A DNA stretch of 31,020 nt from Gammaproteobacteria bacterium (GCA_035286765.1 DATECT010000145.1:1-31020), one strand, 5' to 3'. Shown: positions 7,655 through 30,800, counted from the stretch's first letter. Numbers and translations: made by a program. The notes: generated from the sequence alone by a model not told the origin.

Positions 7655-8971
<1,317 letters not shown>

Positions 8972-9345: not shown

Positions 9346-9374
9346 TTTCACTAGAACTGATCTAATGGGAGTGG

Positions 9375-14014: not shown

Positions 14015-16195
14015 GTGACAGTGGAAAGCATCGGGCATTCAGGACCATTACGGGAACTGCTGCTCACGCCTGGGCAAACGATTGCGATTACGGCCACCTT
14101 TACGGTGGAACCGCTGGAACAAGCGCTCAGCTTTTGGATGCGCGAACTCGCTATTCCATCTGACATTGAGTTTGCGCCCTATAATCAAATATTCCAGCAG
14201 TTGCTCGATCCGGCAAGTTTGCTTTCCAAAAACCACACTGGCATAAATGTGGTTCTGGTGCGGTTCGAAGATTGGCTGCGCTTCGATGTGCACCGTAATG
14301 AGCAGGAATCACGCTTACCGCATAGCCGGGAAAAAATTGAACGCAATATCAATGACCTGTTGCGCGCCCTGAAAGCGGCAACCGCACGCTCGGCAATTCC
14401 TTATCTTATCTGCGTATGCCCCGCCTCCACCGAGGTAGTTGCCGATGCCAACAGCCTGCCTTTCTTGGTAAAAATGGAAGAGCTGATGGCGGCGGAATTG
14501 GCCACCATCCCCGGTGCTTACCTGATCAGGTCGGCAGAGTTGACGGCCACATACCCGGTTGCGGTTTATTACGATGCGCACGGCGATAAACTAGCCCATA
14601 TCCCCTTTACCCCCCCCTTCTTTACCGCGCTGGCCACCATGCTGGCGCGCAAGATCCATGCGTTAAAGAGCAGCCCCCACAAGGTCATTGTGCTCGATTG
14701 CGACCAGACCTTGTGGAAGGGTGTGTGTGGGGAGGACGGTGCGCAGGGTATTGAAATCGATGCACCGCACAAGACCTTGCAAGAATTCATTGTGGCGCAG
14801 CATGCCATGGGCATGCTGGTTTGCCTATGTAGTAAAAACAATGAAGAAGACGTTATAGAGGTTTTTGATAGCCGCGACGATATGCCGCTGCGGCGCGAGC
14901 ATATCGTGGCCTGGCGCATCAACTGGGCGCGCAAATCGGAAAATTTGAAATCCCTGGCCGAAGAACTTCAATTAGGCCTGGATAGCTTTATCTTTATCGA
15001 TGATGACCCGGCCACCTGCGCGGAAGTTGAGGAAAGTTGCCCGGAAGTATTGACGGTGCTGCTCCCGCAAGATACTTGTGAGATAACTAAATTCCTGGGT
15101 CATATTTGGGCGTTTGATCGTTTAACCGTTACCCATGAGGATGCCGCGCGGACGGCATTTTATAAGCAAAATTTACAGCGCGAGCGCACCCGCAAAGAGG
15201 CGCTGAGCTTCGAGGACTTTCTGGCCGGTTTGGCCATCACTATCCGCATCTCGCCCTTGCAGCAACAGCATGTAGGCCGGGTTGCCCAACTGACGCAGCG
15301 TACCAATCAATTTAATTTCACCACGATCAGGCGCACGGAAGCCGATATTCAAACCTTGCTACACATGCCGAATGTCGAATGCCTGGTGGTGGAGGTCAGC
15401 GATCGCTTCGGTGACTACGGGTTAGTGGGAATGATGGTGTTTGAGCTTGCCGCCGCCACCTTGCAGGTCGATAGTTTTTTACTGAGCTGCCGTGCGCTCG
15501 GCAAGGGCATCGAGAATCGCATGTTGGCGGCATTGGGTGAAATCGCGCAAAGCAGGGGCTTGGCGGATGTCGAAGTTACCTATCTGCCCACTCAGAAAAA
15601 CAGATTGGCATATGACTTTCTAAGTGCATGGAATATGCCCTGTAGAAAACTTGCCAGTAACGGCACGAAATTCATTTTTCCCGCCGCGTTTGCCGCCAAG
15701 ATCAGCTTGCATCCGGTAACCCAAGAGCCGGCCAATCCCAGCGCTGTGCTCAACACCGCTTCCTCTTTAAGCACTCTGGCGCCTGTCCAGGCAGTCGGCA
15801 AATCAGCGCGCTTGAGGAGAATTTGCGAGGTGTTATCCGACCCCGAATACGTGCACAAGATCATTGGTTTGGCACGGCGACGTCCCCGTCCCCAGCTTAA
15901 AAAAAACTTTATACCACCCTACACCAGAATAGAAAAATTGCTAGCCGATATCTGGGAGAGTGTCCTAGGCGTTGCCCCGATCGGGCTGCAGGATAATTTT
16001 TTTGAATTAGGCGGCCATTCGCTGCTGGCGATGCAGGTCATCTGGCGGGTGCGCGATGCCTTGCAGGTGGAGTTGTCGCTGCGCGGTTTTTTCGAGGCCC
16101 CGACTATTACGGGGATGCTTCATAACATCCAGGCGTTAGGACGCCTGAATAATTTACCAGACCCATTAACAGATCGTATACAGGGGGAAATATGA
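14015..16195 (+). CDS. FkbH-like glyceryl transferase/phosphatase fused to a carrier (T) domain
   Basis: N-terminal IAITATFTVEPL...FAPYNQIFQQLLDP, HAD motif VIVLDCDQTLW, CSKNNEEDV, FIFIDDDP, QRTNQFN, DRFGDYGLVG, FLLSCRALG, then T FFELGGHSL. GTG start after GGAGGAGG. Confidence 0.92.
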   Translation: MTVESIGHSGPLRELLLTPGQTIAITATFTVEPLEQALSFWMRELAIPSDIEFAPYNQIFQQLLDPASLLSKNHTGINVVLVRFEDWLRFDVHRNEQESRLPHSREKIERNINDLLRALKAATARSAIPYLICVCPASTEVVADANSLPFLVKMEELMAAELATIPGAYLIRSAELTATYPVAVYYDAHGDKLAHIPFTPPFFTALATMLARKIHALKSSPHKVIVLDCDQTLWKGVCGEDGAQGIEIDAPHKTLQEFIVAQHAMGMLVCLCSKNNEEDVIEVFDSRDDMPLRREHIVAWRINWARKSENLKSLAEELQLGLDSFIFIDDDPATCAEVEESCPEVLTVLLPQDTCEITKFLGHIWAFDRLTVTHEDAARTAFYKQNLQRERTRKEALSFEDFLAGLAITIRISPLQQQHVGRVAQLTQRTNQFNFTTIRRTEADIQTLLHMPNVECLVVEVSDRFGDYGLVGMMVFELAAATLQVDSFLLSCRALGKGIENRMLAALGEIAQSRGLADVEVTYLPTQKNRLAYDFLSAWNMPCRKLASNGTKFIFPAAFAAKISLHPVTQEPANPSAVLNTASSLSTLAPVQAVGKSARLRRICEVLSDPEYVHKIIGLARRRPRPQLKKNFIPPYTRIEKLLADIWESVLGVAPIGLQDNFFELGGHSLLAMQVIWRVRDALQVELSLRGFFEAPTITGMLHNIQALGRLNNLPDPLTDRIQGEI
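15972..16104 (+). repeat. Direct repeat copy 2 (T-domain core of the FkbH-T gene)
   Basis: 133 nt with 5 mismatches against 12973-13105. Confidence 0.92.
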
Positions 16196-19100
16196 ATCCA
16201 CTACTCTCGCCGCAGCCAGTCATGCAGGAGCCTCAGCCATCCATCCGCGAATTCCTGGCCCAGTTACGCACCCAAGGGGTGGTCATGTGGCCGGAGGGTG
16301 AGCGACTGCGGTTTAGCGCCCCCAAGGAGTGCCTCACTCCCGAGTTCTACAGCGCCTTAGCGGCGCGCAAGGTCGAGATTATGCATGTCTTGGCGGATGA
16401 CGCCGCCCCGGCCCCGGCGTCATTGCCGGCGTGCGATCATGCCAGCCCCTGTATCTCTTTTGCCCAGCAGCGCCTGTGGTTCCTCCACCAGTTGGCCCCC
16501 GATAGCCCGGTGTATAACATCCCGCTGCTGCTGGATGTGCGCCGCGTGTTGCAGATCGCCGTCTTGCAGCGTGCCTTGACTGAAATAGTGCGCCGCCACA
16601 GTGTGCTGCGTGCCGTTTATGTTCCCGGTAGCAACCCCCCGCGGCTCCACGTGCAACCGCCTTACGAGGTCGCCCTGCCGCTTATCTCGCTGACCGAAAG
16701 CGACCGTGCCAGCCGCCGCAGCCGGGCTCAAGCCCTCGCCGAAGCAGCCGCACGCGAGCCCTTCGATCTGGAGCACGGCCCCTTGCTGCGCGCCCATGTA
16801 TGGAGGTTGGAGCCGGAACAACACCTGTTGCTTATCAGTCTTCATCACAGCGTCTCTGACGGCTGGTCGAGCGGGGTATTGCTGAGTGAATTGGGCAGTC
16901 TTTACAGTGCCTTGGTGAGAGGTCAGACCATGCCCTTGGCACCCTTGCCTATTCAGTATGCGGATTATGCCCACGCCCAGCGCGCGGCCCTGCAAGGTCC
17001 GGCCCTGGATGAACAATTAGGCTATTGGAAACAGCAACTGGCCGATAGCCCGGCCCTGCTGACCTTGCCCAGCGACCGCCCGCGTCGCGGCACGCCGCGC
17101 TTTCAGGGGGCATTGGCCTACAGCCGTTTGCCGGCGGATCTAGTGGGCGAGTTGCAGGCCTTGAGCCGGCGTGCTGGAGTCACCTTGTTTATGACCCTAT
17201 TGGCTGCCTTCCAGGGCTTATTGGCGCGCTACAGCGGTCAGCATGACATCGTGGTGGGGGCACCTATCGCCGGGCGCACCGAACAGGCTACCGAGGGTTT
17301 GATCGGCTGCTTTATCAATACCCTGGCCCTGCGCACCGACCTGAGCGGGGATCCGAGTTTTATGGAATTACTCAAGCGGGTGCGGGAGACGGCCCTGGAG
17401 GCCTACGCCCACCAGGAACTGCCCTTCGATAAGTTGGTGGAGGCCCTGCAGCCGGAGCGCAATCTCAGCCACACGCCGTTCTTTCAAACGGTGTTTGTGT
17501 TGCACAACACGCCCCAGGAGGGCTTGCACTTCACCGATTTGAGCGTTACCGCGCTACCTATCCACACCGGCACGGCCAAGTTTGACCTGAGCTTGGCGGC
17601 CACCGAGACCCCCGCCGGGCTGGACTGCGAACTCGAATACAACACCGACCTGTTCGATGCGACCACTGCCGAACGCCTGCTCGGCCACTTCCGGACCCTG
17701 CTGGACGGCATCGTAGCCGACCCCACGCAGCGGCTGGGGCAGTTGCCGCTGCTCACGCCCGCCGAGCGTACCGCATTGCTGGCACCGCCCGCGCCGCCCG
17801 CCGCCGCGCCGAGCACCACCCTCACCGCCCTGTTCGAGGCCCAGGCGGTACGCCGCCCGCAGGCCATTGCAGCGGTGTATGAGGAGCAGCGCCTGAGCTA
17901 TCACGACCTCAACACCCGCGCCAACCAACTGGCCCACTACCTGCAGCAGCAGGGTGTCGGCCCCGAGCAAGTCGTCGGTCTGTGCCTGGAGCGCGGCCCC
18001 GACCTGCTCATCGGTCTGCTCGCCATCCTCAAGGCTGGCGGCGCCTACCTGCCGCTCGACCCCGGCTACCCGCCAGAGCGCTTGGCCTTCATGCTGGCCG
18101 ACAGCCAAGTCCGCCTGGTCATCACCCACAGCAGCCTCGGCGTCGCCCTGCCCGCTGACCGCTCGCGGCTCTGTCTGGACCAGCTAGCGACCGCCTTGGC
18201 CGCCCAGCCCGGCGCCAACCCCGTGACCACCGCCCGGCCCGAGCAGCTCGCCTACATCATCTACACCTCCGGCTCCACCGGCAAACCCAAGGGCGTGATG
18301 ATCACCCAGGCCAACGTCCTGCGCCTGTTTACGGCCACCGAGCCCTGGTTTCACTTTACCGAACACGACGTATGGACCCTGTTCCACTCCTACGCCTTCG
18401 ACTTCTCGGTGTGGGAGATCTGGGGGGCCTTGTTGTACGGCGGCACCCTGGTGATCGTGCCTTATGCCGTTAGCCGCGCCCCCGAGGCCTTCTACCAGCT
18501 GTTACATCAGGAAGGGGTCACCGTGCTCAACCAGACCCCCTCGGCCTTCCGCCAACTGAGCCACGCCGAACAGCAACTCGGCCCCCAGCCGCTGGCCTTG
18601 CGCTACATCATCTTCGGCGGCGAGGCCCTGGAGTTACAGAGCCTGAAGCCCTGGCTGGCGCGCCACGGCGACAGCGCCCCCCAACTCATCAACATGTACG
18701 GCATCACCGAGACCACCGTGCACGTCACCTACCGGCGCATCACCCTCGAGGACGTGGAGGCCCAGCGCGGCAGTGTGATCGGCGTGCCCATCCCCGACCT
18801 GCAGGCCTATTTGCTCGACCAATACGGCCAACCCGTGCCGATCGGCGTGCCGGGCGAGATCCACGTCGGCGGGGCGGGGCTGGCGCGCGGCTACTTGAAC
18901 CGTCCGGAGCTCAGCGCCGCGCGCTTCATCCCGCACCCCTTCAGTGACGTCCCCGGGCAGCGGCTGTACAAGTCCGGCGACCTGGCGCGCTACCTCAACA
19001 ACGGCGAGTTGGACTACCTGGGGCGCATCGATCAGCAAGTGAAGCTGCGCGGCTTCCGTATCGAGCTGGGCGAGATCGAGGCGGCGCTCAGCCAGCATGC

Positions 19101-19686
19101 CGGCGTGCGCGAGGCGGTGGTGCTATTGCGCGAGGACAGTCCCGGCGATCAACGTCTGGTTGGCTACTGGACCGGGCAAGGCGATCCGCTGCCGAGCACC
19201 CAGGACCTGCGTCAACATCTCAAGACCCAGCTTCCCGATTACATGGTGCCCTCTAACCTGGTGTGGCTGGAGGCGTTGCCGCTCACCGCCAACGGCAAGG
19301 TAGACCAGCGCGCCTTACCGCGCCCGGAGGATCATGCCGAACGCGAGCTTGCCTACGTCCCGCCCGCCACCTTACTGGAGCAGTCTATCGCGAGCGTATG
19401 GCAGGAGGTGCTGCAAGTCGAGCAGGTGGGACGTGAGGATAATTTCTTTGATTTAGGCGGGCACTCCATGCTCATGGTGCGTGTGCATAGCCGCTTACGG
19501 GAACTACTGGGTAAAGAAATCTCTGTCATTCAATTGTTTCAATACCCCACTGTGAGGGCGCTCGCACAATGCTTATCCCAAGCCGGGCCGCTTGCTCCTA
19601 CAGCCGCCTTAGCCGGGGTCATCGCTCACGCTGCGCGGCAAAAGGCCGCGCAGCAGCGTCATCGTCATGAGGCTAGAAGGGTATGA
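16192..19686 (+). CDS. NRPS module betaHD(TubC_N-like)-C-A(Thr)-T
   Basis: N-terminal IREFLAQLRTQGVVMWPEGERLRFSAPKECLTPEFYSALAARKVEI docking domain. C motif HHSVSDGWS. A code DFWNIGMVHK, the canonical Thr code. T FFDLGGHSM. Confidence 0.95.
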   Translation: MNPLLSPQPVMQEPQPSIREFLAQLRTQGVVMWPEGERLRFSAPKECLTPEFYSALAARKVEIMHVLADDAAPAPASLPACDHASPCISFAQQRLWFLHQLAPDSPVYNIPLLLDVRRVLQIAVLQRALTEIVRRHSVLRAVYVPGSNPPRLHVQPPYEVALPLISLTESDRASRRSRAQALAEAAAREPFDLEHGPLLRAHVWRLEPEQHLLLISLHHSVSDGWSSGVLLSELGSLYSALVRGQTMPLAPLPIQYADYAHAQRAALQGPALDEQLGYWKQQLADSPALLTLPSDRPRRGTPRFQGALAYSRLPADLVGELQALSRRAGVTLFMTLLAAFQGLLARYSGQHDIVVGAPIAGRTEQATEGLIGCFINTLALRTDLSGDPSFMELLKRVRETALEAYAHQELPFDKLVEALQPERNLSHTPFFQTVFVLHNTPQEGLHFTDLSVTALPIHTGTAKFDLSLAATETPAGLDCELEYNTDLFDATTAERLLGHFRTLLDGIVADPTQRLGQLPLLTPAERTALLAPPAPPAAAPSTTLTALFEAQAVRRPQAIAAVYEEQRLSYHDLNTRANQLAHYLQQQGVGPEQVVGLCLERGPDLLIGLLAILKAGGAYLPLDPGYPPERLAFMLADSQVRLVITHSSLGVALPADRSRLCLDQLATALAAQPGANPVTTARPEQLAYIIYTSGSTGKPKGVMITQANVLRLFTATEPWFHFTEHDVWTLFHSYAFDFSVWEIWGALLYGGTLVIVPYAVSRAPEAFYQLLHQEGVTVLNQTPSAFRQLSHAEQQLGPQPLALRYIIFGGEALELQSLKPWLARHGDSAPQLINMYGITETTVHVTYRRITLEDVEAQRGSVIGVPIPDLQAYLLDQYGQPVPIGVPGEIHVGGAGLARGYLNRPELSAARFIPHPFSDVPGQRLYKSGDLARYLNNGELDYLGRIDQQVKLRGFRIELGEIEAALSQHAGVREAVVLLREDSPGDQRLVGYWTGQGDPLPSTQDLRQHLKTQLPDYMVPSNLVWLEALPLTANGKVDQRALPRPEDHAERELAYVPPATLLEQSIASVWQEVLQVEQVGREDNFFDLGGHSMLMVRVHSRLRELLGKEISVIQLFQYPTVRALAQCLSQAGPLAPTAALAGVIAHAARQKAAQQRHRHEARRV

Positions 19687-22600
19687 ACAGTTTAAACGCC
19701 GACGCCGCTGACCAAATCGCCGTTGTGGGAATGGCGGGCCGTTTCCCCGGGGCTAAAAATATTGAAGCCTTTTGGCGTAACTTGCAGAAGGGCGTGGAAT
19801 CGATTGTCTTCTTTAAAGATGAAGAATTGGAGTCGCTGAATCTCGATGCGGCTTTATTAGGCGATCCGAGTTACATCAAGGCGCGTGCCATTTTAGACGA
19901 CGCCGAATCGTTTGATGCCGGTTTTTTCGGCTTTAAACCGAAAGAGGCCGAACTCACCGATCCGCAGCAACGGATTTTTCTGGAGTGCGCGTGGGAGGCC
20001 TTGGAAAATGCCGGTTATGACCCGGAAAATTATCCGGGCGCCATCGCGGTGTATGCGGGCGCCGGCTCCAATACCTATTTACTTAATCACCTCTACCCTA
20101 ATCATACGGCGTACGAATTAAGCAGCCTGGCTGCGATGATCGGCAACGACAAGGACTTTCTCGCCACGCGCGTATCGTACAAGCTCAATCTGCGCGGGCC
20201 GAGCGTGAGCGTGCAAACGGCTTGTTCCACCTCGCTGGTAGCCGTGTCCATGGCCTGTAACAGCCTGCTGAGCTATCAGTGCGATATGGCCCTGGCGGGC
20301 GGCGTGTCGGTTAGCTTCCCGCAGCGGCGCGGTTATTTATATCAAGAGGGCGGCATTCTCTCGGGCGACGGCCATGTGCGCGCCTTCGATGAACGGGCGC
20401 AAGGCATGCTGGCAGGTCATGGTGCGGGCATCGTGGTATTGAAGCGCCTCAGCGAGGCGCTGGCCGACGGCGACACGATCTGGGCGGTGATTAAAGGCAC
20501 TGCCATGAATAACGATGGTGCGCAGAAGGTCGGCTACACCGCCCCTAGCGTGGATGGGCAGGCCGAGGTGATCGCCCTGGCGCAGGCCCTGGCCGACGTG
20601 ACGCCGGACACCATTAGCTATGTGGAGGCACATGGCACCGGCACCCCCTTGGGCGACCCGATTGAAATTGCCGGTCTCACGCAGGCATTTCGGCTAGGCA
20701 CGGAGGCAAAAAACTTTTGTGCCATCGGTTCGGTAAAGACCAATGTAGGCCATTTGGATATCGCCGCCGGTGTGACGGGATTGATTAAAACCGTGCTGGC
20801 CTTAAGGCATAAACAATTGCCGCCCAGTCTGAATTTTGAGCGTCCCAATCCCAAGATCGATTTTGCCAATAGCCCGTTTTATGTGAACACCGAACTGCGC
20901 GAGTGGGAGACGGCAGGCACGCCGCGCCGCGCCGGCGTGAGTTCGTTCGGGATCGGCGGCACCAATGCGCATGTGGTCGTGGAAGAGGCCCCTGTGGTAG
21001 CGAGTTCCAGCCCGGCGCGTCCCTGGCAATTGCTGACGCTGTCCGCCAAAACCGCTACGGCGCTCGACACCGCTACGACAAATTTAGCCGAGCATTTAGC
21101 GCAACACCCCGAGCTCAATTTGGCGGATGCTGCTTATACCCTGCAACTGGGCCGCCGCGGTTTTCAGCACCGCCGTATAGTGGTGTGCCGAGATCACGCG
21201 GATGCGATTTCCTTACTCCAAACACCCGATGCTAATCGCGTCGTCAGCCAAACGCTTAACTCTACTCAGACAGCGGTGAGCTTCATGTTCCCCGGCCAGG
21301 GCGCGCAGTTTATTAATATGGGCCGGGAGTTATATGAGACCGAGCCGGTTTACCGGCAGCACATTGATAGTTGCGCGGAATTGCTGTTGCCCGAACTCGG
21401 GTTGGATCTGCGCAGCGTGTTATACCCGGACGCTGATCAGGCCGAGACGGCACAACAGCAATTAACCCAGACCGGCATCACCCAACCCGCACTGTTTGCC
21501 GTGGAATATGCCACGGCGCAATTGTGGATGGCGTGGGGTATTACGCCGCAAGCGTTGATTGGCCATAGCATCGGCGAATACGTGGCGGCCTGTTTGGCCG
21601 GCGTGTTTTCGCTGCCGGAGGCACTGGCCTTGGTGGCGGCACGCGCCCGGCTGATGCAGGCGCTGCCCGCCGGCGCGATGCTGGCCATTCGCCTGCCGGA
21701 GCAAGAGGTCGTGCCGTTGCTCGGCAATGGCATTGCACTGGCCGCGGTCAACAGCCCCGCCTTGTGTGTGGTATCCGGTGCGCACGCCGCCATCGAGGCC
21801 CTGCAACAACAACTCACCGAGCATGAGATCGGGCAGCGCCGTTTGCATACTTCCCATGCCTTTCACTCGGCGATGATGGAACCCATGTTAGCGGCCTTTG
21901 ACGAGCAGTTGACTAAGGTGAAACTACGCGCCCCTCAGATCCCGTATATCTCCAATGTCACGGGCACGTGGATTACTGCCGCGCAGGCCACCGATCCGCA
22001 TTATTGGACTATGCATATACGCCAGACCGTGCGCTTCTCAGACGGCCTGCAAGCGCTGTTTAGCGACAGGAATAGCGTGTTGCTGGAAGTTGGGCCAGGC
22101 CAGACCTTAACGACATTGGCCAGGCAACATTCGGCCAAATCCGGCGCGCAACTTATTGTGGCCTCCGGTTATCCGGTGCAGGAGCCGGGTTCGGATAGGG
22201 CGGCGCTACTTACCGCGCTGGGGCGCTTATGGCTGGCCGGAGTGACTATCGATTGGCGACTGGTTCACCAACCCGAACAACGCCAACGGGTGCCGCTACC
22301 GGCCTATCCCTTCGAGAGAAGGCGCTATTTTGTAGAGGTACCCGCGTTAGCAAAAAATATGACAGCACAAGTATTGAATAATAAATCAGTAGATTGTGTG
22401 ACCCGCTTCACTCAGCAAGCTGATAGGGCGGTTAGAAATGAAAAAGATAAGGAGATCACCATGGCTGATGCCCAGGTAGTTACACCATCCAACTCATCTG
22501 GCCGGCAGGCGCGGCTGGTGCCGCAATTGCAAAGTCTATTGAGTGAATTATCCGGCATGGACTTGGCAAGCGTGAGTACCACGACGACATTTCTCGAGAT

Positions 22601-25600
22601 GGGGTTTGATTCGCTGTTTCTCACCCAGCTCAGCCAGGCCCTGCAGAAAAAATTCGGTATCAAGGTCGCATTTCGCCAATTGCTGGGCGAGTCGGCCACG
22701 CTTACCAGCCTGGCTACGTACATCGATCAGCAATTGCCGGCGGAGGCCTTCCAAGAAGCACCTCACCAACCCTCGGCCGTAGCGGGCAACATTGAGTCAG
22801 TGTCCGCGCAGACAGCCTCTCTATTAATGCCTGCGCCGGATAGCGTCCAGACCAATACTTCAACACCGGCTGCGGCAAGCGTATTGGAACGCGTCATCGC
22901 CCAACAACTGCAACTTATGGCGCAGCAATTGGCGCAACTGCGTACCAGTGCAGCGCCTGCCTCGGTAGCCGCCGCGTCTTTACCGGCGCCACATGGCGAA
23001 TGGAGCATGACCGGGGTAGCGCATGATAACGTCACTCAACAGACTGTCAAAAAGGACGAGGTCAAGGCCTTTGGGCCGTACAAACCCATCGTGAAGGGCG
23101 CGAGCGGCGGGTTGACCGGACAGCAGCAGGCGCATCTAAATGAATTGGTGGCGCGCTATACGCAGCGCACCGCGGAATCCAAACGCTATACGCAGGAACA
23201 TCGCCCGCATCTCACTGACCCGCGTGCGGTGTCAGGTTTCCGCTTACTGTGGAAAGAGATGGTCTACCCGGTAGTTGCCGCGCGTTCCTCCGGCTCAAAG
23301 ATTTGGGATGTCGACGGTAATGAATACATCGACCTGACCATGGGCTTTGGCGTGAATTTATTCGGCCACTCGCCGCCTTTTGTCATAACCGCGTTGGAGG
23401 AACAACTCAAACTCGGCATTGAAATCGGCCCCACTTCACCGCTGACCGGGCAGGTGGCGCAACTGCTCTGCGAGTTGACCGGCATGGAGCGCGCCATCTT
23501 TTGCAATACCGGTTCCGAGGCCGTGATGGCGGCCTTGCGCGCGGCGCGCACTGTCAGTGGGCGCGACAAGATTGCGCTGTTCTCCGGTGCTTACCATGGC
23601 ATCTTCGACGAGGTGCTGGTGCGCGGCCACGCGACCGCGGACGGCAAACCGCATTCCCTGCCGATTGCACCCGGCATCCCCGAACACATGGTGCAAGATG
23701 TATTAGTGCTGGAGTATGGCACACCGGCCGCGTTGCAGATGCTCAAGGCGCATGGCCATGAACTGGCCGCCGTGATAGTGGAGTCGGTGCAGAGCCGTCG
23801 TCCGGATTTACAGCCCAGGGAATTTTTACATGAGCTGCGGCGCATCACGCAACAAACCGGCACGGCGCTCATCTTCGACGAAGTGATTACCGGGTTTCGC
23901 GCGCACCCGCAAGGCGCGCAGGGCTGGTTCGGGGTGCAGGCCGATCTTGCCACCTACGGCAAGGTCATCGGTGGCGGCATGCCCATCGGCGCAGTGGCGG
24001 GCAAGGCCGCTTATCTGGATGTGTTTGACGGCGGCGCCTGGCAATATGGCGATAACTCCTTCCCGGAGGTCGGTGTCACCTTTTTTGCAGGTACCTTCGT
24101 GCGTCATCCGTTGGCCCTGGCAGCGGCTTGGGCAGTGTTGAATCACCTCAAGAGCAGCGGCCCCGAATTACAACAGCGTTTGAATCAGCGTACTACTGAA
24201 TTTATTAACGACCTTAATAGCTTTTTCCAGGCACAACAAGCGCCGGTGCGCATCGCGCATTTTAGCTCGCTCTTCTATATCAGCTTCGAGGGCGAACAAA
24301 AATACGCCAGCCTATTGTTTTATCATTTACGCGAGAAGGGCGTGCACGTATGGGAAGGGCGTCCCTGCTTTTTATCCACGGCGCATTCCGATGCCGACAT
24401 CGTCCGCATTACGCAGGCCTTCAAAGACAGCGTGATGGCCCTGCAAGACGGCGGATTTTTCCCGCCTGCGCCCGCGCCGCGCGGCGGACTCGCAGTCCCC
24501 GACCATGCCGCCGACGCTACGCCGGCGCAGGCATCCGCATCCACGCCATCTGCGCCCACCAGCGTGGCGCTCACCGAGGCGCAGCGCGAATTATGGGTGG
24601 CGGCGCAAATGAGCACGGAAGGCTCGCGCGCCTACAACGATTGCCTCACGCTGGCGTTGCACGGCCCTTTGAACAAAGCGGCACTGTATAAAGCCTTGCA
24701 GAATCTAGTGGCGCGCCATGAGGCGCTGCGTACCACCTTCAGCGCCGCGGGCGACGTGCAGCACATCGCGACGCACGGCCAACTGGAGTTGCACGGCGTG
24801 GATTTATCGAACGTAGCGGCGTCGCAGCGCGAACACGCTCTGCACGCCCACCTACAGACCGGCGCCCAGCGCGAATTTGACTTGGTGCACGGACCGCTGG
24901 TGCGCGCCGAACTGGTCACACTCGAACCCAAGCACCATGTGCTGGTGGTCACCGCGCACCATATCGTGTGCGACGGCTGGTCGTTGGGCGTACTGTTTCG
25001 AGAACTGAGCGAACTGTACAACGCCGCCCACGAAAATCGATCCGCCGCACTGCCCCCGGCGCTGGCGTTCAGCACGTATGCGGCGTGGCAGGAGCGTCCC
25101 GAGCAGGTAGAGGCGCGCCGCCGCGCGGAAGATTATTGGGTGCAACAATACGCCGAACCCGCCCCGGCATTGGATCTGCCCACCGACCGGCCCCGTCCGG
25201 CACAACGTTCCTACCGGGGCGCGCGCCACGTCGCGCGGCTCGATGCGGCGCTGTACGCACAACTCAAACGCGCCGGCGCGCAGCAGGGCGCGACCCTATT
25301 CACGGTGCTGCTTACGGCCTACATGACCTGGCTACAGCGCCTCACCGGCCAAGACGATGTAGTGATCGGTGTGCCGGCGGCGGGGCAATCGCTGATCGAG
25401 GGCGGCGAGCACCTGCTCGGGCACTGCGTCAACTTTTTACCGCTGCGTCAGCGCTTGGATATGACGGCGAATTTCAACGACGCGCTGCGCGCCGTGCAAG
25501 ATAACGTGCTGGAGACCTATGAACACCAGCAATGCACCTACGGCAGTCTCATCCGCCGACTCGCCTTGCCGCACGACCCGAGTCGCGCGCCATTGGTGAG

Positions 25601-27812
25601 TGCCACCTTCAACATCGACCGGCGCATCGACGGGTTGGACTACGCCGGCCTGCGGGCGCAACTGCGCGGCCACTCCAAACAATTCATTAATTTCGATCTG
25701 AAATTGAACGCCGTGGAGACCGGGGAGGGCATGGAGCTCGAGTGGGACTACAACACCGCCCTGTTTGACGCCACGACCATTGAGCGCCTCAGCGGCCACT
25801 ACGCAACACTCTTGCAGGGCATACTCGCCGATTCCACCCAGCCCCTGGCGGCCTTAGCGCTGCTTACCCAGGCCGAGCAGGCGGTCCTCACCGCGCCCGC
25901 GCCGTATATCCCCGCCCCCGTCGACACTGTCATCACCCGCTTCGAGGCCCAGGTCGCGCTGACCCCCGACGCCCTTGCCGTCGAGGCCCCCGACGGCACC
26001 CTGACCTACGCCGCCCTCAACGTCCAAGCTAATCGCCTCGCCCACGCCCTGCGCGCGCTGGGCGCCGGCCCCGAGACCCGCGTCGGCCTGTTCGCCGAAC
26101 GCGGCGTCGGCCTGCTCGGCGGCCTGTGGGGCATCCTCAAGGCCGGCGCCGCCTACGTTCCGCTCGATCCACAGGCCCCGCCCGCGCGCCTGCGCACCAT
26201 CGCCGCCGACGCCGGGCTGCTCGCCGTGGTCAGCCCCAGTGTTTTCCCCGACGTCTCCGGCCCCGACCTCGACCTCCCCGTACTGTGCGCGGACGACGCT
26301 ACCCTCGCGGCCCAGCCCGCGCACAATCCGGACGCGCCCCCCCGCCCCGGGGATCTCGCCTATGTGCTCTACACCTCCGGCTCCAGCGGCGCCCCCAAAG
26401 GCGTCATGATCGAACACGGCGCGCTCATGCACCTCCATCAGGCCTTGGCGGATACCGTCTATAGCGACCTCGCGCAGCAGGCCCCTGCGCGGCCCCTGCG
26501 CGTAAGCCTCAACGGCCCGCTCTACTTCGACACCTCCGTCAAACAATGGCTGCAACTGCTGAGCGGCCACACCCTGTGCCTGGTGCCCGAGGACTGCCGC
26601 CCGGACGGTGCGGCCTTGCTCGCCTATCTTGCCAACCAGCGCGTAGACGTGCTCGACACCACGCCCACCCAACTCACCTTACTCGCCCAAGCCGGCCTGC
26701 TCGCCTCGCATGCCTACCGCCCGGCCTGCCTGCTCATCGGCGGCGAGGCCCTTGCGCCCAGCCTGTGGGCCGCCATCGCGGCCTGCCCCGAGTGGGCCGC
26801 CTACAATCTCTACGGCCCCACCGAATGCACCGTGGACGCCACCCTCGCGCGCCTCACCCCCGGCGGCACCCCACACCTCGGCCAGGCCCTCCCGCACGTC
26901 GGCCTGCGCATCCTCGATGCACAGCGCCAGCCCGTGCCCGTTGGTGTGGCGGGCGAACTCTACATCGGCGGGGCGGGCGTGGGACGCGGCTATCTCAACC
27001 GCCCTGACTTGACCCAAGCACGCTTCCTGCCTGATCCTAACGGGGCTGACCCCCAGGCGCGGCTCTACCAAACCGGCGACCGCGTGCGCCGTCGCGCCGA
27101 CGGCACCCTCGACTACCTCGGGCGCCTGGACGGCCAAGTCAAACTCAGAGGCTACCGTATCGAACTGGGCGAGATCGAGGCCCTCCTGCAGACCCACCCC
27201 CAGGTGGCGAGCGCCGCCGTCAGCGTGCGCGAAGACATTCCCGGGGACGCGCGCATGGTGGCCTATATCGTCGCGCGCGACAGCAACAGCCCGGACGAGG
27301 CGAGCCTGCGTACCCATCTCAGTACACACCTGCCCGACTACCTGCTGCCAAGCGCTTACGTCACCCTCACTCAACTTCCGCTCACCCGCCACGGCAAGCT
27401 CGACCGCCACGCCTTACCGGCCCCGCCTGTAGAGGCTACCGTCACGCCGGCCCCCGACGCGGCCCCCGAGGGTCCAGTCGAACAGGTCGTCGCCAAGCTC
27501 TACGCCCAAGTGTTGGGCCGTGGGCAGCTCGACCGCCACAGCAGCTTCTTCGCCCTCGGCGGGCACTCGCTGCTGGCCATCCAGGTGTTGGCGCGGTTGC
27601 GCGAGGCGTTGGACGTGAGTGTGCCGGTGCGCACCCTGTTTGAGGCCCCCACGGTGAGCGCCTTGAGCGCGCGGCTCACCGCCACGGCCACCGACCCGGC
27701 CCGTCTGGCGGCACGCGCGCGCCTGTATAACGAGGTCGCCCAACTCAGCCCGGAGGCGGTACGCGCCCAGTTGGCACGGCGGCGGGCGACCAAACAGGCG
27801 GGGGGCGAGTAG
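19683..27812 (+). CDS. Hybrid PKS-NRPS KS-AT-ACP-aminotransferase-C-A(Asp/Glu-like)-T
   Basis: KS QTACSTS, EAHGTGT, KTNVGHL. AT GHSIGE and HAFHS (malonyl type). ACP MGFDSL. Class III PLP aminotransferase FDEVITGFR and TYGKVIGGG. C HHIVCDGWS. A code DTKDLGLVDK. T FFALGGHSL. No KR, DH or ER. Confidence 0.96.
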   Translation: MNSLNADAADQIAVVGMAGRFPGAKNIEAFWRNLQKGVESIVFFKDEELESLNLDAALLGDPSYIKARAILDDAESFDAGFFGFKPKEAELTDPQQRIFLECAWEALENAGYDPENYPGAIAVYAGAGSNTYLLNHLYPNHTAYELSSLAAMIGNDKDFLATRVSYKLNLRGPSVSVQTACSTSLVAVSMACNSLLSYQCDMALAGGVSVSFPQRRGYLYQEGGILSGDGHVRAFDERAQGMLAGHGAGIVVLKRLSEALADGDTIWAVIKGTAMNNDGAQKVGYTAPSVDGQAEVIALAQALADVTPDTISYVEAHGTGTPLGDPIEIAGLTQAFRLGTEAKNFCAIGSVKTNVGHLDIAAGVTGLIKTVLALRHKQLPPSLNFERPNPKIDFANSPFYVNTELREWETAGTPRRAGVSSFGIGGTNAHVVVEEAPVVASSSPARPWQLLTLSAKTATALDTATTNLAEHLAQHPELNLADAAYTLQLGRRGFQHRRIVVCRDHADAISLLQTPDANRVVSQTLNSTQTAVSFMFPGQGAQFINMGRELYETEPVYRQHIDSCAELLLPELGLDLRSVLYPDADQAETAQQQLTQTGITQPALFAVEYATAQLWMAWGITPQALIGHSIGEYVAACLAGVFSLPEALALVAARARLMQALPAGAMLAIRLPEQEVVPLLGNGIALAAVNSPALCVVSGAHAAIEALQQQLTEHEIGQRRLHTSHAFHSAMMEPMLAAFDEQLTKVKLRAPQIPYISNVTGTWITAAQATDPHYWTMHIRQTVRFSDGLQALFSDRNSVLLEVGPGQTLTTLARQHSAKSGAQLIVASGYPVQEPGSDRAALLTALGRLWLAGVTIDWRLVHQPEQRQRVPLPAYPFERRRYFVEVPALAKNMTAQVLNNKSVDCVTRFTQQADRAVRNEKDKEITMADAQVVTPSNSSGRQARLVPQLQSLLSELSGMDLASVSTTTTFLEMGFDSLFLTQLSQALQKKFGIKVAFRQLLGESATLTSLATYIDQQLPAEAFQEAPHQPSAVAGNIESVSAQTASLLMPAPDSVQTNTSTPAAASVLERVIAQQLQLMAQQLAQLRTSAAPASVAAASLPAPHGEWSMTGVAHDNVTQQTVKKDEVKAFGPYKPIVKGASGGLTGQQQAHLNELVARYTQRTAESKRYTQEHRPHLTDPRAVSGFRLLWKEMVYPVVAARSSGSKIWDVDGNEYIDLTMGFGVNLFGHSPPFVITALEEQLKLGIEIGPTSPLTGQVAQLLCELTGMERAIFCNTGSEAVMAALRAARTVSGRDKIALFSGAYHGIFDEVLVRGHATADGKPHSLPIAPGIPEHMVQDVLVLEYGTPAALQMLKAHGHELAAVIVESVQSRRPDLQPREFLHELRRITQQTGTALIFDEVITGFRAHPQGAQGWFGVQADLATYGKVIGGGMPIGAVAGKAAYLDVFDGGAWQYGDNSFPEVGVTFFAGTFVRHPLALAAAWAVLNHLKSSGPELQQRLNQRTTEFINDLNSFFQAQQAPVRIAHFSSLFYISFEGEQKYASLLFYHLREKGVHVWEGRPCFLSTAHSDADIVRITQAFKDSVMALQDGGFFPPAPAPRGGLAVPDHAADATPAQASASTPSAPTSVALTEAQRELWVAAQMSTEGSRAYNDCLTLALHGPLNKAALYKALQNLVARHEALRTTFSAAGDVQHIATHGQLELHGVDLSNVAASQREHALHAHLQTGAQREFDLVHGPLVRAELVTLEPKHHVLVVTAHHIVCDGWSLGVLFRELSELYNAAHENRSAALPPALAFSTYAAWQERPEQVEARRRAEDYWVQQYAEPAPALDLPTDRPRPAQRSYRGARHVARLDAALYAQLKRAGAQQGATLFTVLLTAYMTWLQRLTGQDDVVIGVPAAGQSLIEGGEHLLGHCVNFLPLRQRLDMTANFNDALRAVQDNVLETYEHQQCTYGSLIRRLALPHDPSRAPLVSATFNIDRRIDGLDYAGLRAQLRGHSKQFINFDLKLNAVETGEGMELEWDYNTALFDATTIERLSGHYATLLQGILADSTQPLAALALLTQAEQAVLTAPAPYIPAPVDTVITRFEAQVALTPDALAVEAPDGTLTYAALNVQANRLAHALRALGAGPETRVGLFAERGVGLLGGLWGILKAGAAYVPLDPQAPPARLRTIAADAGLLAVVSPSVFPDVSGPDLDLPVLCADDATLAAQPAHNPDAPPRPGDLAYVLYTSGSSGAPKGVMIEHGALMHLHQALADTVYSDLAQQAPARPLRVSLNGPLYFDTSVKQWLQLLSGHTLCLVPEDCRPDGAALLAYLANQRVDVLDTTPTQLTLLAQAGLLASHAYRPACLLIGGEALAPSLWAAIAACPEWAAYNLYGPTECTVDATLARLTPGGTPHLGQALPHVGLRILDAQRQPVPVGVAGELYIGGAGVGRGYLNRPDLTQARFLPDPNGADPQARLYQTGDRVRRRADGTLDYLGRLDGQVKLRGYRIELGEIEALLQTHPQVASAAVSVREDIPGDARMVAYIVARDSNSPDEASLRTHLSTHLPDYLLPSAYVTLTQLPLTRHGKLDRHALPAPPVEATVTPAPDAAPEGPVEQVVAKLYAQVLGRGQLDRHSSFFALGGHSLLAIQVLARLREALDVSVPVRTLFEAPTVSALSARLTATATDPARLAARARLYNEVAQLSPEAVRAQLARRRATKQAGGE

Positions 27813-27843
27813 CATGAGTGCGGAAATGAAAGGGGAAGGAAAC

Positions 27844-30800
27844 ATGGTAGACATGAACAGTGCACAAGAAGAACTGCTTGCCTTGTTGCTGGAAGAGCAG
27901 GGCATCGACACTGAGCAAGCGCCGCCGCTTACGCCGCGCGCGCGCAACACGCCGCCGCCGTTGTCCTTCGCCCAGCAGCGGCTATGGTTTCTGGAACAGT
28001 GGGAGCAGGGCAGCGCGGCCTATAACATCTGCGATGCCGCGCGCCTCAGCGGCGTGCTGAAAGTGGATATTTTGGAGCGCGCGCTGAGCGAGATAGTGCG
28101 CCGCCACGAGGTGTTGCGCACCACGTTTAAAAGCATCGAGGGTACGCCGGTGCAAGTCATCCATCCCGCCACGCCGCTAAATCTGCCGCTCATAGATTTG
28201 CGTTTGCTGCCCAGGCCGCAGCGCGAGGCCGAGGTGCTGCGTATGGCCGGCGAGGCGGCGCGCCAGCTGTTTAATCTGGACCAGGGGCCGCTGCTGCGCG
28301 TTACGCTGCTGCGCGTAGACGAGCACGAACACGTGCTGCTGCTGACCATCCATCACATCATCTTCGATATCTGGTCGCGCAAGGTGTTCAGGCGGGAATT
28401 GCACACCCTGTACGAAGCCTACCTACAGGGCCGCGCCGCGCCGCTCGCCGAACTGCCCATTCAATATGCCGACTACGCCTACTGGCAGCGCGAATGGCTG
28501 CAAAGCGGCCTCCAGGCCCAGCAGATGGCGTATTGGAAGGAGCGTCTGGGCGGCGCGCTGCCGGTACTGGAATTGCCCGCCGATTACCCGCGCCCCGCGC
28601 AACAGACCTTTAACGGCGCGCTCGTGTCGCGCGTGCTGCCCGACGCGCTCAGCCAGGCCTTGCTGCACCTGGGCCAGCGTGAAGGCGCGACGCTGTTCAT
28701 GACCCTGCTGGCGGCGTTCAAGGCGCTGCTGCATCGCTACACCGGACAACACGATATTATCGTCGGCACCCCGATAGCGAACCGCTCGCGCATCGAAACG
28801 GAAGGGCTGATTGGATTTTTCCTCAACACCTTGGCGCTGCGCACCGACGTATCCGGCGACCCCAGCTTCACCGAATTACTGATACGCGTGCGCGAGCAGG
28901 CCTTGCAGGCCTACGACCACCAGGATTTACCCTTCGAGCGCCTGGTGGAAGAATTGCAGCCCACGCGCGATCCCAGCCACAGCCCGCTGTTCCAAGTGAT
29001 GTTCGTGCTGCAAAACGACGTGCAACAGTCGGTCGGGTTGCCCGGCGTCACCTTCACCCCGCTGGAGGTCGATAACCATACCGCCAAGTTTGATTTAACC
29101 GTATTCGTCATCGAATCAGGGCGGCGTTTAACGACCCATTTTGAATACAACACCGACTTATTTAGCGAACAAACGGTAGCGCCCTGGCTGGATCACTGGC
29201 AGACCTTGCTGGAGGGCATTGTGGCCGACCCCGCGCAACGCCTCTCGGAACTGCCGCTGCTTAGCGCCCCCGAGCGCCACCGGTTGCTCGTCGAATGGAA
29301 CCCTTGGCCGCCGTTCCCGACAGAACAGACCCTCGCGGGGCTGTTCGAGGCGCAGGTGGAACGAACCCCGCACGCGATCGCGGTGGCGTTCGAAGACCGG
29401 GTCCTCAGCTATGACGAGTTAAACGGCCGAGCCAATCAACTGGCCCACCGTCTGCGCGCCCTGGGCGTGGGCCCCGAGGTCTTGGTCGGGCTGTGCATGG
29501 AGCGCTCGCTGGAGTTGGTGGTGGGGCTGTTGGGCATCCTCAAGGCCGGGGGCGCCTATGTGCCGCTGGACCCCGGCTATCCCAAAGAGCGCCTGGCCTT
29601 CCTGTTGGAGGACACCGGGGTGCGCGTGTTGGTGGCGCAGCAGCGCCTGGTGGCCCAGCTGCCGGCACACCGGGCCAGGGTGCTATGCCTTCCCAGCGCC
29701 GCGCTCGAGGAGGAGTCCCGCGCCAACCCGGTAAGCGGCGTGCGCCCGGACCACCTCGCCTACGTCATGTACACCTCCGGCTCCACCGGCACACCCAAGG
29801 GCGTGGCCGTGCCCCAGCGGGCCGTGGCGCGCCTGGTCACGCACACCGATTACGTGACGCTCGGCCCCGAACAGGTGTTCCTGCAGTTTGCGCCCTTGGC
29901 CTTTGACGCCTCCACCTTCGAGCTTTGGGGCGCGTTACTCAACGGCGGTAAGCTCGTCGTCTTCCCCCCGCACACACCCACCCTCGCGGAACTCGGGACG
30001 ACGCTCCAGGCCCGGCGCATCACCACGCTGTGGCTCACCGCCGGATTATTCCATGCCATGGTTGACGAGCAGCTTTGGGCCTTCCAAGGCGTGCGCCAGC
30101 TGCTGGCCGGCGGTGACGTGCTCTCGGTACCGCACGTGCAACGCTTCCTGGCGGCCCACCCGGGCTGCCGGCTCATCAATGGCTACGGGCCGACCGAGAA
30201 CACCACTTTCAGTTGTTGCTATACGATCCCGCCCCATGCCGCGCTCGGCAGGGCGGTCCCCATTGGCCGCCCGATCGCTCACACCCAGGCTTATATCCTG
30301 GATGCCTATTGCCATCCCGTGCCGATCGGCGTCTTCGGCGAGCTCTACCTTGGGGGCGCGGGGCTCGCGCGCGGCTATCATAACCGCCCGGAATTGACCG
30401 CCGAGAAGTTCATCCCCCATCCGTTTAGCCCAGACCCCAGCGCGCGGCTTTACAAGACCGGCGACCTGGCGCGCTATTTACCGGACGGCAACATCGAGTT
30501 CCTGGGGCGTACCGATCATCAAGTCAAGATTAGAGGCTTCAGGATAGAGTTGGGCGAGATCGAGGCTGTGCTTAGCGCCCATCCAAGCATCAAGGAAGCC
30601 GTCGTCATAGCACGGGAAGACACGCCGGGAGACAAGCGCCTGGTGGCCTACCTGGCGGCAAGCCCTGCCCCCAGCAGCCAGGAATTGCGCAATTATTTGA
30701 TGGCGCGGCTGCCCGAGTACATGCTGCCCGCGATTTTTGTCATCCTGGATGCCCTGCCATTGACACCGAACGGCAAGCTCGACCGTAAAGCCCTACCTGC

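What the first reader, a model, noticed from the sequence alone, without database searches (positions are those of the whole stretch)
19683..24460. Aminotransferase PKS module after an amino acid: predicted Thr-derived 3,4-diamino acid
Seen: KS-AT(malonyl)-ACP-AMT with no KR directly follows the Thr module. Known: this architecture (microcystin McyE, mycosubtilin MycA) converts a beta-keto thioester into a beta-amino acid, normally on a polyketide or fatty chain. Inference: extending a peptidyl-Thr gives 3,4-diamino-5-hydroxyhexanoate, an amino analogue of statine. The predicted backbone is [methyl-His or glyceryl]-(diamino-hydroxyhexanoyl)-Asp/Glu-Val plus anything downstream. I do not recognise this as a described compound. 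Statine-like units suggest protease inhibition, and the free amine could also be a branch or cyclisation point.
Basis: partly seen in the sequence, partly recalled or inferred. Interest (0 to 1): 0.75.

Follow-up and report, generated by a model that had tools for sequence, protein, structure and literature searches.

The report
Threonine-fed amine-installing polyketide module
A soil bacterium's small, complete peptide/polyketide gene cluster holds an intact module that should extend a threonine-ended chain by two carbons and turn the new ketone into an amine, giving an unusual building block with two neighbouring nitrogens; the design is common in genomes, but I found no described product.

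Summary
ORF 19683-27812 encodes KS-AT-ACP-AMT-C-A-T with every catalytic motif intact and no KR, DH or ER. The gene before it, overlapping by ATGA, is a C-A-T module with the canonical Thr code DFWNIGMVHK.

The AMT matches the solved MycA aminotransferase domain (6KFM, E 1.6e-151). It is the best-conserved domain against the nearest relative (76%).

The assembly line is complete. The window ends inside the last T domain, and own-genome contig C101 continues with TE, a PPTase and ispD. The line is therefore [A-MT-T or FkbH-T] → Thr → malonyl+NH2 → Glu-like → Val → TE. It lies between the housekeeping genes ftsB and ispD, and no tailoring gene lies between them.

The predicted unit, N4-acylated 3,4-diamino-5-hydroxyhexanoate, is supported in silico only.

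Novelty is limited. In 34 of the 37 related loci whose upstream side is readable, an amino-acid module precedes the KS. Thr is the commonest amino acid, then Val, then Pro. This scan has already reported Thr-primed AMT modules in several other genomes. I found no characterised product.

New here are the Thr elongation (not loading) context, the Glu-Val tail, a Cys-nucleophile TE and the island site.

Verdict: new variant of a known kind, moderate interest.

The parts
9924..13214 (+). Free-standing A-MT-T loader, code DSALIAEVW(K), His-like by recall. It is one of two candidate N-caps for the Thr residue.
   Evidence: Pfam AMP-binding, Methyltransf_12 and PP-binding. Code. The C-terminal tail ...DR..IQGEI is shared with the FkbH-T protein.
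14015..16195 (+). FkbH-T loader (glyceryl-S-carrier), the second candidate N-cap. In relative L001 it is fused directly to the Thr module.
   Evidence: NCBIfam TIGR01686 FkbH domain, E 8.3e-92. PP-binding at aa 642-702. L001 has FkbH-T-C-A-T as one 1833-aa ORF.
16192..19686 (+). Thr elongation module: TubC_N docking domain (aa 18-67), C (88-530, HHSVSDG), A (548-1036, code DFWNIGMVHK), T (1065-1128).
   Evidence: Pfam. Sequence and code. The same code occurs in L001.
19683..20840 (+). KS domain (aa 10-386) with Cys181-His-His, so competent for elongation.
   Evidence: Pfam PF00109 and PF02801. Motifs TACSTS, EAHGTGT, NVGH. Identity is 74% to the L001 KS and 54-66% to other KSs in the sample that are fed from an amino acid or FkbH-T, but only 38% to the Pseudoalteromonas L044 KS, which is inferred to be lipid-fed.
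21282..22130 (+). AT domain (aa 534-816), GHS629IG, H725AFH, read as malonyl-CoA specific.
   Evidence: Pfam PF00698, E 4.3e-52. Motifs. That HAFH means malonyl is established knowledge of PKS AT domains.
22524..22724 (+). ACP (about aa 948-1014), phosphopantetheine Ser977 in GFDSL.
   Evidence: PF00550, E 1.4e-12 on the sub-region. Sequence.
23112..24458 (+). Class-III PLP aminotransferase (AMT) domain, aa 1144-1592, with PLP-binding Lys1427 (nt 23961-23963).
   Evidence: PF00202, E 5e-53. PDB 6KFM/6KFR/6KFU MycA AMT, E 1.6e-151, 508 bits over 449 residues. K, D, E, H, R, T and G positions are invariant in 52 homologues.
24564..27677 (+). C (HHIVCDG) - A (code DTKDLGLVDK, Glu-like) - T, fused behind the AMT.
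   Evidence: Pfam. Code. L001 has the identical code.
27814..31020 (+). Last module, C-A(Val, DAFWLGGTFK)-T, cut inside the T domain by the contig end. It continues on own-genome contig C101 (L070:3-932) as a TE with a Cys nucleophile, followed by an Sfp-type PPTase and ispD.
   Evidence: Pfam. tblastn of L001 C-A-T-TE places residues 1126-1407 on C101:3-857. The window ends ...TLFQA and C101 starts IDRLADIL.... Pfam on L070. GHCFG motif.

Best explanation
The region is a functional MycA/McyE-type beta-aminating PKS module (KS-AT-ACP-AMT, fused to C-A-T). It works inside a short, complete NRPS-PKS line.

**Proposed steps.**
1. An N-acylated threonyl thioester forms on the T domain of the preceding C-A(Thr)-T module. 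The acyl cap is glyceroyl from FkbH-T, or a methylated His-like residue from A-MT-T.
2. The chain passes to KS Cys181 and condenses with malonyl-ACP. This gives 4-acylamino-5-hydroxy-3-oxohexanoyl-S-ACP.
3. The in-line PLP domain (Lys1427) transaminates the 3-ketone on the carrier. This gives 3-amino-4-acylamino-5-hydroxyhexanoyl-S-ACP, a vicinal diamine with one free amine.
4. The fused C domain couples C1 to a Glu-like residue. The last module adds Val.
5. A Cys-nucleophile TE releases a product of about 480-540 Da, either linear or cyclised through the 3-amine or the 5-hydroxyl.

**Shown here.** Domain order, intact motifs, homology to the characterised MycA AMT, specificity codes, completeness and boundaries of the cluster, and conservation in relatives.

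**Inferred.** Every chemical step, the amine donor, stereochemistry, mode of release and biological role.
For: - **Domain order and absence of reductive domains:**
- **Catalytic motifs all present:**
- **Thr, Glu-like and Val codes:**
- **AMT homology:** 508 bits, E 1.6e-151, to the MycA AMT structures 6KFM and 6KFU. The MycA domain is described as transferring an amine from Gln to the ACP-bound beta-ketothioester (PMC3870968).
- **AMT conservation:** the PLP Lys and seven of the nine other motif positions checked are invariant in 52 homologues, and the other two vary only conservatively (S/T, Y/F). The AMT is the best-conserved domain against L001, at 76% compared with 50-75% for the other large (catalytic) domains (the short T domain of the Glu module scores 89% over 73 residues).
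- **Collinearity:** the Thr-module stop and the KS start overlap as ATGA at 19683-19686. The same order and the same three codes occur in the independent MAG L001, where FkbH-T is fused to the Thr module.
- **Completeness:** TE, PPTase and ispD lie on own contig C101, and the split T domain joins with about 2 residues missing. L001 shows the same island between ftsB and ispD, made up only of synthetase genes and a PPTase.
- **KS affinity:** the KS groups by identity with KSs fed from amino acids or hydroxy acids (54-74%), not with the Pseudoalteromonas KS that is inferred to be lipid-fed (38%).
- **Precedent in genomes:** 34 of the 37 related loci with a readable upstream side have an amino-acid module before the same kind of module.
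Against: - No product is known for this cluster or for any amino-acid-fed relative, in the papers I could search.
- No expression data exist. No RNA run is listed.
- The MAG is only 76% complete, so a trans-acting enzyme encoded elsewhere cannot be excluded.
- The specificity codes were read by motif anchors and interpreted from recalled code tables. The Glu-like code is not an exact match to a code I can cite.
- The role of A-MT-T is unclear. In L001 the FkbH-T is fused in cis to the Thr module, and that A-MT-T has a different tail. The identity of the 4-N cap is therefore uncertain.
- The beta-keto intermediate could also leave the line as a delta-lactone or tetramate-type shunt.
Confidence: 0.7

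Rival explanations
1. The KS is primed directly by glyceryl-S-T from FkbH-T, and the Thr module is bypassed or serves another branch. The AMT would then make 3-amino-4,5-dihydroxypentanoate rather than a vicinal diamine.
For: The sister cluster L002 has exactly this arrangement: FkbH-T followed directly by KS-AT-ACP-AMT, with no Thr module. Its AMT is 74% identical to the window's and sits in the same well-supported clade. L024 and L040 are also FkbH-fed.
Against: - In the window both loaders end in the same tail. The only TubC_N docking domain is at the N-terminus of the Thr module, not of the KS protein.
- The Thr module is translationally coupled to the KS gene.
- In L001 FkbH-T is covalently fused upstream of C-A(Thr)-T.
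- The window KS is closer to the Thr-fed L001 KS (74%) than to the FkbH-fed L002 KS (66%).
Confidence: 0.1
2. The ketone is not aminated in the final product. Either the AMT is inactive on this substrate, or a KR encoded elsewhere wins. The unit would then be a beta-keto or statine-like 4-amino-3-hydroxy acid.
For: The MAG is incomplete, at 76%. Trans-acting ketoreduction after assembly exists in other pathways (pepstatin, from memory). No biochemical data exist.
Against: - All AMT catalytic residues are present and invariant across 52 homologues.
- The AMT is the best-conserved domain against L001 and is very close to active MycA.
- No reductase lies between ftsB and ispD, in the window plus C101 or in L001.
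- No other PKS or NRPS modules were found in the genome.
Confidence: 0.07
3. The juxtaposition is an assembly artefact, with NRPS/PKS repeats joined wrongly in a metagenome bin.
For: The contig comes from a fragmented MAG of 241 contigs. GC rises from about 53% to about 63% near 16 kb. Logan contigs of the holder runs are only 0.7-3 kb long.
Against: - The same gene order and codes occur in the independent MAG L001 on an 84-kb contig with the same flanking housekeeping genes.
- A contig of run X1 bridges 18690-19742, and depth is even across the region in three runs.
- The reading frames are open throughout.
Confidence: 0.02

Closest known systems
MycA / ItuA (mycosubtilin and iturin synthetase subunit A, Bacillus): KS-ACP-AMT-C-A-T
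   Same: Both have a class-III PLP AMT domain in line after an ACP and fused to a C-A-T module, with no KR, acting on a carrier-bound beta-ketothioester. The window AMT matches the solved MycA AMT at E 1.6e-151. The MycA function is described in PMC3870968.
   Different: MycA is fed by a fatty acyl chain and makes a beta-amino fatty acid, whose amine later closes the lipopeptide ring. Here the donor is an N-acylated threonyl thioester from an NRPS elongation module, so the product carries two neighbouring nitrogens. The peptide is also only two residues longer.
McyE / NdaF (microcystin and nodularin synthetases): KS-AT-(CM)-ACP-AMT-C-A(Glu)-T
   Same: The order of domains is the same, including a cis AT and a Glu-type residue added right after the beta-amino acid (architecture recalled from the literature, not tested here).
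   Different: McyE aminates a long polyketide (Adda) and has a C-methyltransferase. The window module follows an amino acid and has no CM. The A-domain code differs from what I recall for McyE.
Flavipulchrin-type lipopeptide synthetase of Pseudoalteromonas (PMC12819058)
   Same: It is a characterised relative. A PKS module adds C2 and an AMT domain installs the 3-amine, followed by Gly, Asp and Asn. Loci L044 and L046, from other Pseudoalteromonas species, show the matching KS-AT-ACP-AMT-C-A(Gly)-T | C-A(Asp)-T-C-A(Asn)-T and 52-54% AMT identity.
   Different: It is lipid-primed through a starter C domain. Its KS is only 38% identical to the window KS, and its AMT lies in a separate clade.
Uncharacterised genomic family A(Thr/Val/Pro)-T | KS-AT-ACP-AMT-C-A(Gly)-T | C-T-TE (for example Labrys, Bosea, Acidicapsa, many MAGs)
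   Same: An amino acid, most often with the same Thr code, is handed to the same kind of KS-AT-ACP-AMT module. The window's AMT nests among them in the tree. Earlier reports of this scan describe the same design.
   Different: In that family the amino acid is a starter with a free amine, and the next residue is Gly. Here Thr sits in an elongation module with a C domain, so its nitrogen is acylated, and Glu-like and Val residues follow.
BioF/BioA logic of biotin synthesis (KAPA to DAPA)
   Same: It shares the chemical logic. An alpha-amino acyl unit is extended to an amino ketone, and a class-III PLP aminotransferase then makes the vicinal diamine (established biochemistry, recalled).
   Different: BioF and BioA are free enzymes acting on free acids, and the condensation is decarboxylative and PLP-dependent. 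There is no carrier protein or KS. This is only an analogy, and no homology beyond the aminotransferase fold class was tested.

Membership tests
MycA/McyE-type beta-aminating PKS module | Elongating KS with the Cys-His-His triad | tested here: met
   Cys181 in TACSTS, EAHGTGT and NVGH. PF00109 and PF02801.
MycA/McyE-type beta-aminating PKS module | Carrier protein with a phosphopantetheine serine directly before the AMT | tested here: met
   PF00550 at about aa 948-1014. GFDS977L.
MycA/McyE-type beta-aminating PKS module | In-line class-III PLP aminotransferase homologous to the MycA AMT, with the PLP lysine | tested here: met
   6KFM at E 1.6e-151. YGK1427 and FDEV are present and invariant in 52 homologues.
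MycA/McyE-type beta-aminating PKS module | No KR, DH or ER in the module | tested here: met
   No such Pfam hit even at E <= 10 between AT and AMT. The AT-ACP spacer is about 130 aa.
MycA/McyE-type beta-aminating PKS module | C-A-T module fused behind the AMT | tested here: met
   PF00668 at aa 1628-2069 with HHIVCDG, then A and T.
MycA/McyE-type beta-aminating PKS module | Substrate is a fatty acyl or polyketide chain | tested here: not met
   The upstream carrier belongs to a C-A(Thr)-T module.
MycA/McyE-type beta-aminating PKS module | Demonstrated transamination of the carrier-bound beta-ketothioester | not testable with these tools
   This needs an enzyme assay or a product structure.
Amino-acid-primed AMT family (A-T | KS-AT-ACP-AMT-C-A(Gly)-T), uncharacterised | An amino-acid-loaded carrier directly upstream of KS-AT-ACP-AMT | tested here: met
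   Thr code DFWNIGMVHK upstream of the KS. 28 related loci share this, and 6 more have a Thr module plus C-C-T.
Amino-acid-primed AMT family (A-T | KS-AT-ACP-AMT-C-A(Gly)-T), uncharacterised | The amino acid is the starter (A-T without a C domain), and Gly follows | tested here: not met
   The window module has a docking domain and a C domain before A(Thr). The downstream code is DTKDLGLVDK, not DILQLGMIWK.
Statine-type module (amino acid then KS-AT-KR-ACP) | KR domain reducing the 3-ketone | tested here: not met
   No KR in the module or the island.

The most novel reading that the evidence does not exclude
The AMT-installed 3-amine (or the Thr-derived 5-hydroxyl) is the nucleophile with which the clade-specific Cys-type TE closes a small, strained 10- or 12-membered ring. 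The island would then make a compact cyclic vicinal-diamine peptide in two N-capped versions, glyceroyl and methyl-His. That would be the first characterised product class for the widespread amino-acid-fed AMT modules. The ethylenediamine-like N,N motif with imidazole and carboxylate could also serve metal binding rather than protease inhibition.
Probability: 0.2. Interest if true: 0.65.

Novelty: new variant of a known kind. Interest (0 to 1): 0.45.

Why it matters
Beta-aminating PKS modules are textbook for lipopeptides (iturins) and microcystins. Their use on amino-acid-derived chains would create beta,gamma-diamino acids, and I could find no such block in any described natural product.

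My census shows that this design is frequent in soil bacteria of many phyla. A single characterised example would therefore annotate a large orphan family.

This instance is a good candidate for that work:
- The whole line is only about 21.5 kb.
- It is bounded by housekeeping genes and has no tailoring genes.
- The predicted products are small, about 479 or 542 m/z, and easy to look for.

It also shows that a streamlined genome of about 2 Mb keeps a costly NRPS-PKS island at a fixed, variable site.

Tried and rejected
Contexts were taken instead from the search for related loci, the genome search and the fetch from genomes.
- **Literature.** The full-text searches found no characterised amino-acid-fed AMT module and no 3,4-diamino-5-hydroxyhexanoate. 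Combinations searched:
  - aminotransferase domain, PKS, NRPS, diamino
  - FkbH with AMT
  - AMT domain with threonine
  - vicinal diamine
  - guadinomine with aminomalonyl
  - 'diamino-5-hydroxyhexano'
  - 'aminostatine'

  The hits on the acid name were the 3,6- or 2,6-isomers (negamycin, hydroxylysine). The library lacks most subscription journals, so this is not proof of absence.
- **Expression.** No RNA holder is listed, so nothing can be said about expression.
- **Read support.** Logan contigs of the three soil runs are short unitigs. They cover the region evenly, but only the possible source run (X1) gave a listed piece bridging the Thr-module/KS junction. The odd joints in that table have sides under 30 letters and were ignored.
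- **Rejected: KR hidden in the AT-ACP spacer.** The spacer is too short and gives no hit.
- **Rejected: FAAL-type lipid loaders in the relatives.** Their A domains carry amino-acid codes with D235 and K517.
- **Rejected: further modules elsewhere in the genome.** Only FabF-, FabD- and HemL-level hits were found, plus one lone A10-T fragment on C64.
- **Not attempted:** structure prediction (a solved homologue exists at E 1.6e-151), dN/dS (synonymous sites would be saturated at 76% amino-acid identity), and C-domain subtype calls (no reference set on hand).
Full report
**1. What is in the window**

The window is a whole contig (C145) of a 1.64-Mb, 76%-complete MAG.

It starts with housekeeping genes: dnaE, accA, tilS, pyrG, kdsA, eno and ftsB at 9073-9345.

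Five synthetase genes follow on the + strand:

| Coordinates | Domains |
|---|---|
| 9924-13214 | A-MT-T |
| 14015-16195 | FkbH-T (TIGR01686, E 8.3e-92) |
| 16192-19686 | TubC_N dock-C-A-T |
| 19683-27812 | KS-AT-ACP-AMT-C-A-T |
| 27814-31020 | C-A-T, cut by the contig end |

**2. Check of the observation**

Pfam finds KS, AT, ACP, Aminotran_3, C, A and T in that order in the 2709-aa protein. It finds no KR, DH or ER, even at E <= 10, between AT and AMT. The AT-ACP spacer is about 130 aa.

All catalytic motifs are present:
- KS: Cys181, His, His
- AT: GHS629IG with HAFH (malonyl type)
- ACP: DS977L
- AMT: YGK1427 and FDEVITGFR
- C: HHIVCDG

The preceding module's A domain reads DFWNIGMVHK, the canonical Thr code. 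The two downstream A domains read DTKDLGLVDK (Glu-like) and DAFWLGGTFK (Val). I read the codes by motif anchors and interpreted them from recalled code tables.

The Thr-module stop overlaps the KS start.

**3. The aminotransferase**

The AMT aligns end to end with the crystallised AMT domain of mycosubtilin synthase MycA (6KFM, 6KFR, 6KFU; 508 bits, E 1.6e-151). The next best matches are glutamate-1-semialdehyde aminomutases at about 1e-54.

MycA's domain is the characterised case. It moves an amine from Gln through PLP onto the ACP-bound beta-ketothioester (PMC3870968).

In an alignment of 52 homologous AMT domains, the PLP lysine, the Asp-Glu pair and the His, Arg, Thr and Gly positions I checked are invariant.

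Against the nearest relative the AMT is the best-conserved of the large domains, at 76%. KS is 74%, A(Glu) 75% and the C domain behind the AMT only 50%. Only the short T domain of the Glu module scores higher, at 89% over 73 residues. An inactive relic is therefore very unlikely.

**4. The cluster is complete and bounded**

The nearest relative is L001, an independent MAG on an 84-kb contig. It has the same flanks (dnaE to ftsB) and the same line: A-MT-T | FkbH-T-C-A(Thr)-T | KS-AT-ACP-AMT-C-A(Glu-like)-T | C-A(Val)-T-TE | PPTase | ispD. Its three codes are identical to the window's.

In the window's own genome, contig C101 begins with the residues IDRLADIL.... These complete the T domain that the window breaks off at ...TLFQA. 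C101 then carries a TE, an Sfp-type PPTase, ispD and ispF.

No other NRPS or PKS module was found in the genome.

The assembly line is therefore five building blocks long. No tailoring gene lies between ftsB and ispD.

**5. Mechanism (inferred)**

1. Glyceroyl- or (methyl-His-like)-Thr-S-T is passed to the KS.
2. It is extended with malonyl-ACP to the 3-oxo thioester.
3. The AMT aminates it to 3-amino-4-acylamino-5-hydroxyhexanoyl-S-ACP.
4. The chain is coupled to Glu and then Val, and released.

Only the 3-amine is free, because the 4-nitrogen is the former Thr amide.

Predicted linear products are C19H34N4O10 ([M+H]+ 479.2348) and C23H39N7O8 ([M+H]+ 542.2933).

The cap is uncertain. In the window both loaders end in the same tail, and only the Thr module has a docking domain. 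This agrees with earlier finding e1-5290033. In L001, however, FkbH-T is fused in cis to the Thr module, and its A-MT-T has a different tail. Glyceroyl is therefore the safer guess for the clade.

**6. How unusual is it?**

I took 53 genome loci with a related AMT and annotated them with the window's own domains as queries. The upstream side is readable in 37 of them.

| Upstream of the KS | Loci | Detail |
|---|---|---|
| Amino-acid A-T loader | 26 | 10 Thr (Labrys, Bosea, Acidicapsa, Terracidiphilus); 10 with a Val code plus 2 Val-like; 3 Pro; 3 other codes |
| C-A-T elongation module | 2 | L001 Thr, L050 Gly |
| Thr module followed by C-C-T | 6 | |
| FkbH-T | 3 | including the sister cluster L002 |
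| Recognisable fatty-acyl loader | 0 | |

The Pseudoalteromonas loci L044 and L046 match the published flavipulchrin architecture. They have no loader on the held stretch, so they count among the 16 unreadable loci and are inferred to be lipid-fed only from that paper. They sit in a separate AMT clade, and their KS is only 38% identical to the window's.

The window, L001 and L002 form a supported clade (SH-aLRT 98) inside the group fed from amino acids or hydroxy acids.

The sample was seeded by similarity to this AMT, so these proportions do not describe all AMT modules. They do show that feeding from an amino acid, and especially from Thr, is a recurrent design.

This scan has reported Thr-primed AMT modules in several other genomes and reached the same conclusion: common, with no known product. 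My census agrees with those reports independently.

My literature searches found no characterised example and no report of the 3,4-diamino-5-hydroxy acid.

**7. Context**

- Three soil metagenome runs from 2016 hold the stretch. One may be the source sample.
- The family has small genomes, 1.1-2.4 Mb.
- Only three of its 20 sampled genomes carry the AMT cluster: G000, G008 (the L001 genome) and G012 (the L002 genome).
- In six relatives eno, ftsB and ispD are directly adjacent. In two more an NRPS A domain follows ftsB.
- The ftsB|ispD junction is therefore a variable island site.
- GC rises from about 53% in the loader genes to 60-70% in the core genes.

**8. Release**

The TE nucleophile is Cys (GHCFG). 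The same is true in L001 and in both TEs of L002. Of the other 15 TEs with a readable motif, 13 have Ser and two more (L023, L052) have Cys.

Cys TEs are documented for beta-lactone formation by ObiF and beta-lactam formation by SulM (PMC11298585). The window TE lacks SulM's Gln-Cys-Asn signature.

Its nearest solved relative is 7DXO/7CRN, 'Non-ribosomal peptide synthetase 4', at E 3e-23. I believe this is the cyclising skyllamycin TE, but I could not verify that.

This modestly favours a cyclising release through the 3-amine (10-membered lactam) or the 5-hydroxyl (12-membered lactone). It remains speculation.

**9. Verdict**

The protease-inhibitor idea is untested.
- The module belongs to the MycA/McyE kind by every sequence feature. 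It fails the 'lipid or polyketide substrate' feature, so it works like a MycA module on a different class of substrate.
- Novelty: a new variant of a known kind.
- Interest is moderate. The chemistry is plausible and undescribed, but the design is already known from many genomes in this scan, and nothing here is mechanistically surprising.

Noticed in passing
own-genome contig C101 (L070:3-932); L001:14674-18984; L002:5421-14402 and 14527-18714: The terminal TE has a Cys nucleophile (GHCFG). The same is true in L001 (GACFG) and both TEs of L002 (GGCFG, GWCLG), and also in L023 and L052. The other 13 related TEs with a readable motif have Ser. The motif is not SulM's Q-C-N. The nearest solved TE is 7DXO/7CRN (E 3e-23).
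   Followed up: partly
window 9345-9924 with C101; loci L072-L082: The ftsB|ispD junction is a variable island site in a family of small-genome (1.1-2.4 Mb) Gammaproteobacteria. Six relatives have eno-ftsB-ispD adjacent, two have an NRPS A domain after ftsB, and three (including this genome) have the AMT cluster. Presence and absence both occur within one genus (g6).
   Followed up: partly
window 12973-13214 and 15972-16195; L001:1288-6789; L058:620-3727 (-): The two loaders of the window share a near-identical T domain and C-terminal tail (...DR..IQGEI). In relative L001, FkbH-T is fused in cis to the Thr module with no docking domain between them, and its A-MT-T ends in a different tail. The role of A-MT-T is therefore not the same, or not clear, across the clade. 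L002 instead has a free-standing C domain before FkbH-T and two TEs.
   Followed up: partly
window 1-31020: There is a compositional step. Housekeeping genes are 55-58% GC, the loader genes 52-54%, and the core NRPS/PKS genes from about 16 kb onward are 58-70% GC. This suggests a mosaic or horizontally acquired core.
   Followed up: no
own-genome contig C64:3335-3658: A lone fragment with the end of an A domain and the start of a T domain sits at a contig end, right after a CzcA-like RND efflux gene. It has no nucleotide similarity to the window, and its partner genes are unknown.
   Followed up: partly
L036 (Labrys okinawensis) 616-20115: The Thr-primed relative in Labrys is flanked by a LuxR/LuxI pair, a PPTase, an alpha/beta hydrolase and two more LuxR-type regulators. 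This suggests quorum-sensing control of that orphan cluster.
   Followed up: no
window 13214-14015: An 800-bp gap between the two loader genes has no convincing ORF and has lower GC. It may hold an internal promoter for the FkbH-T gene and the genes downstream.
   Followed up: no
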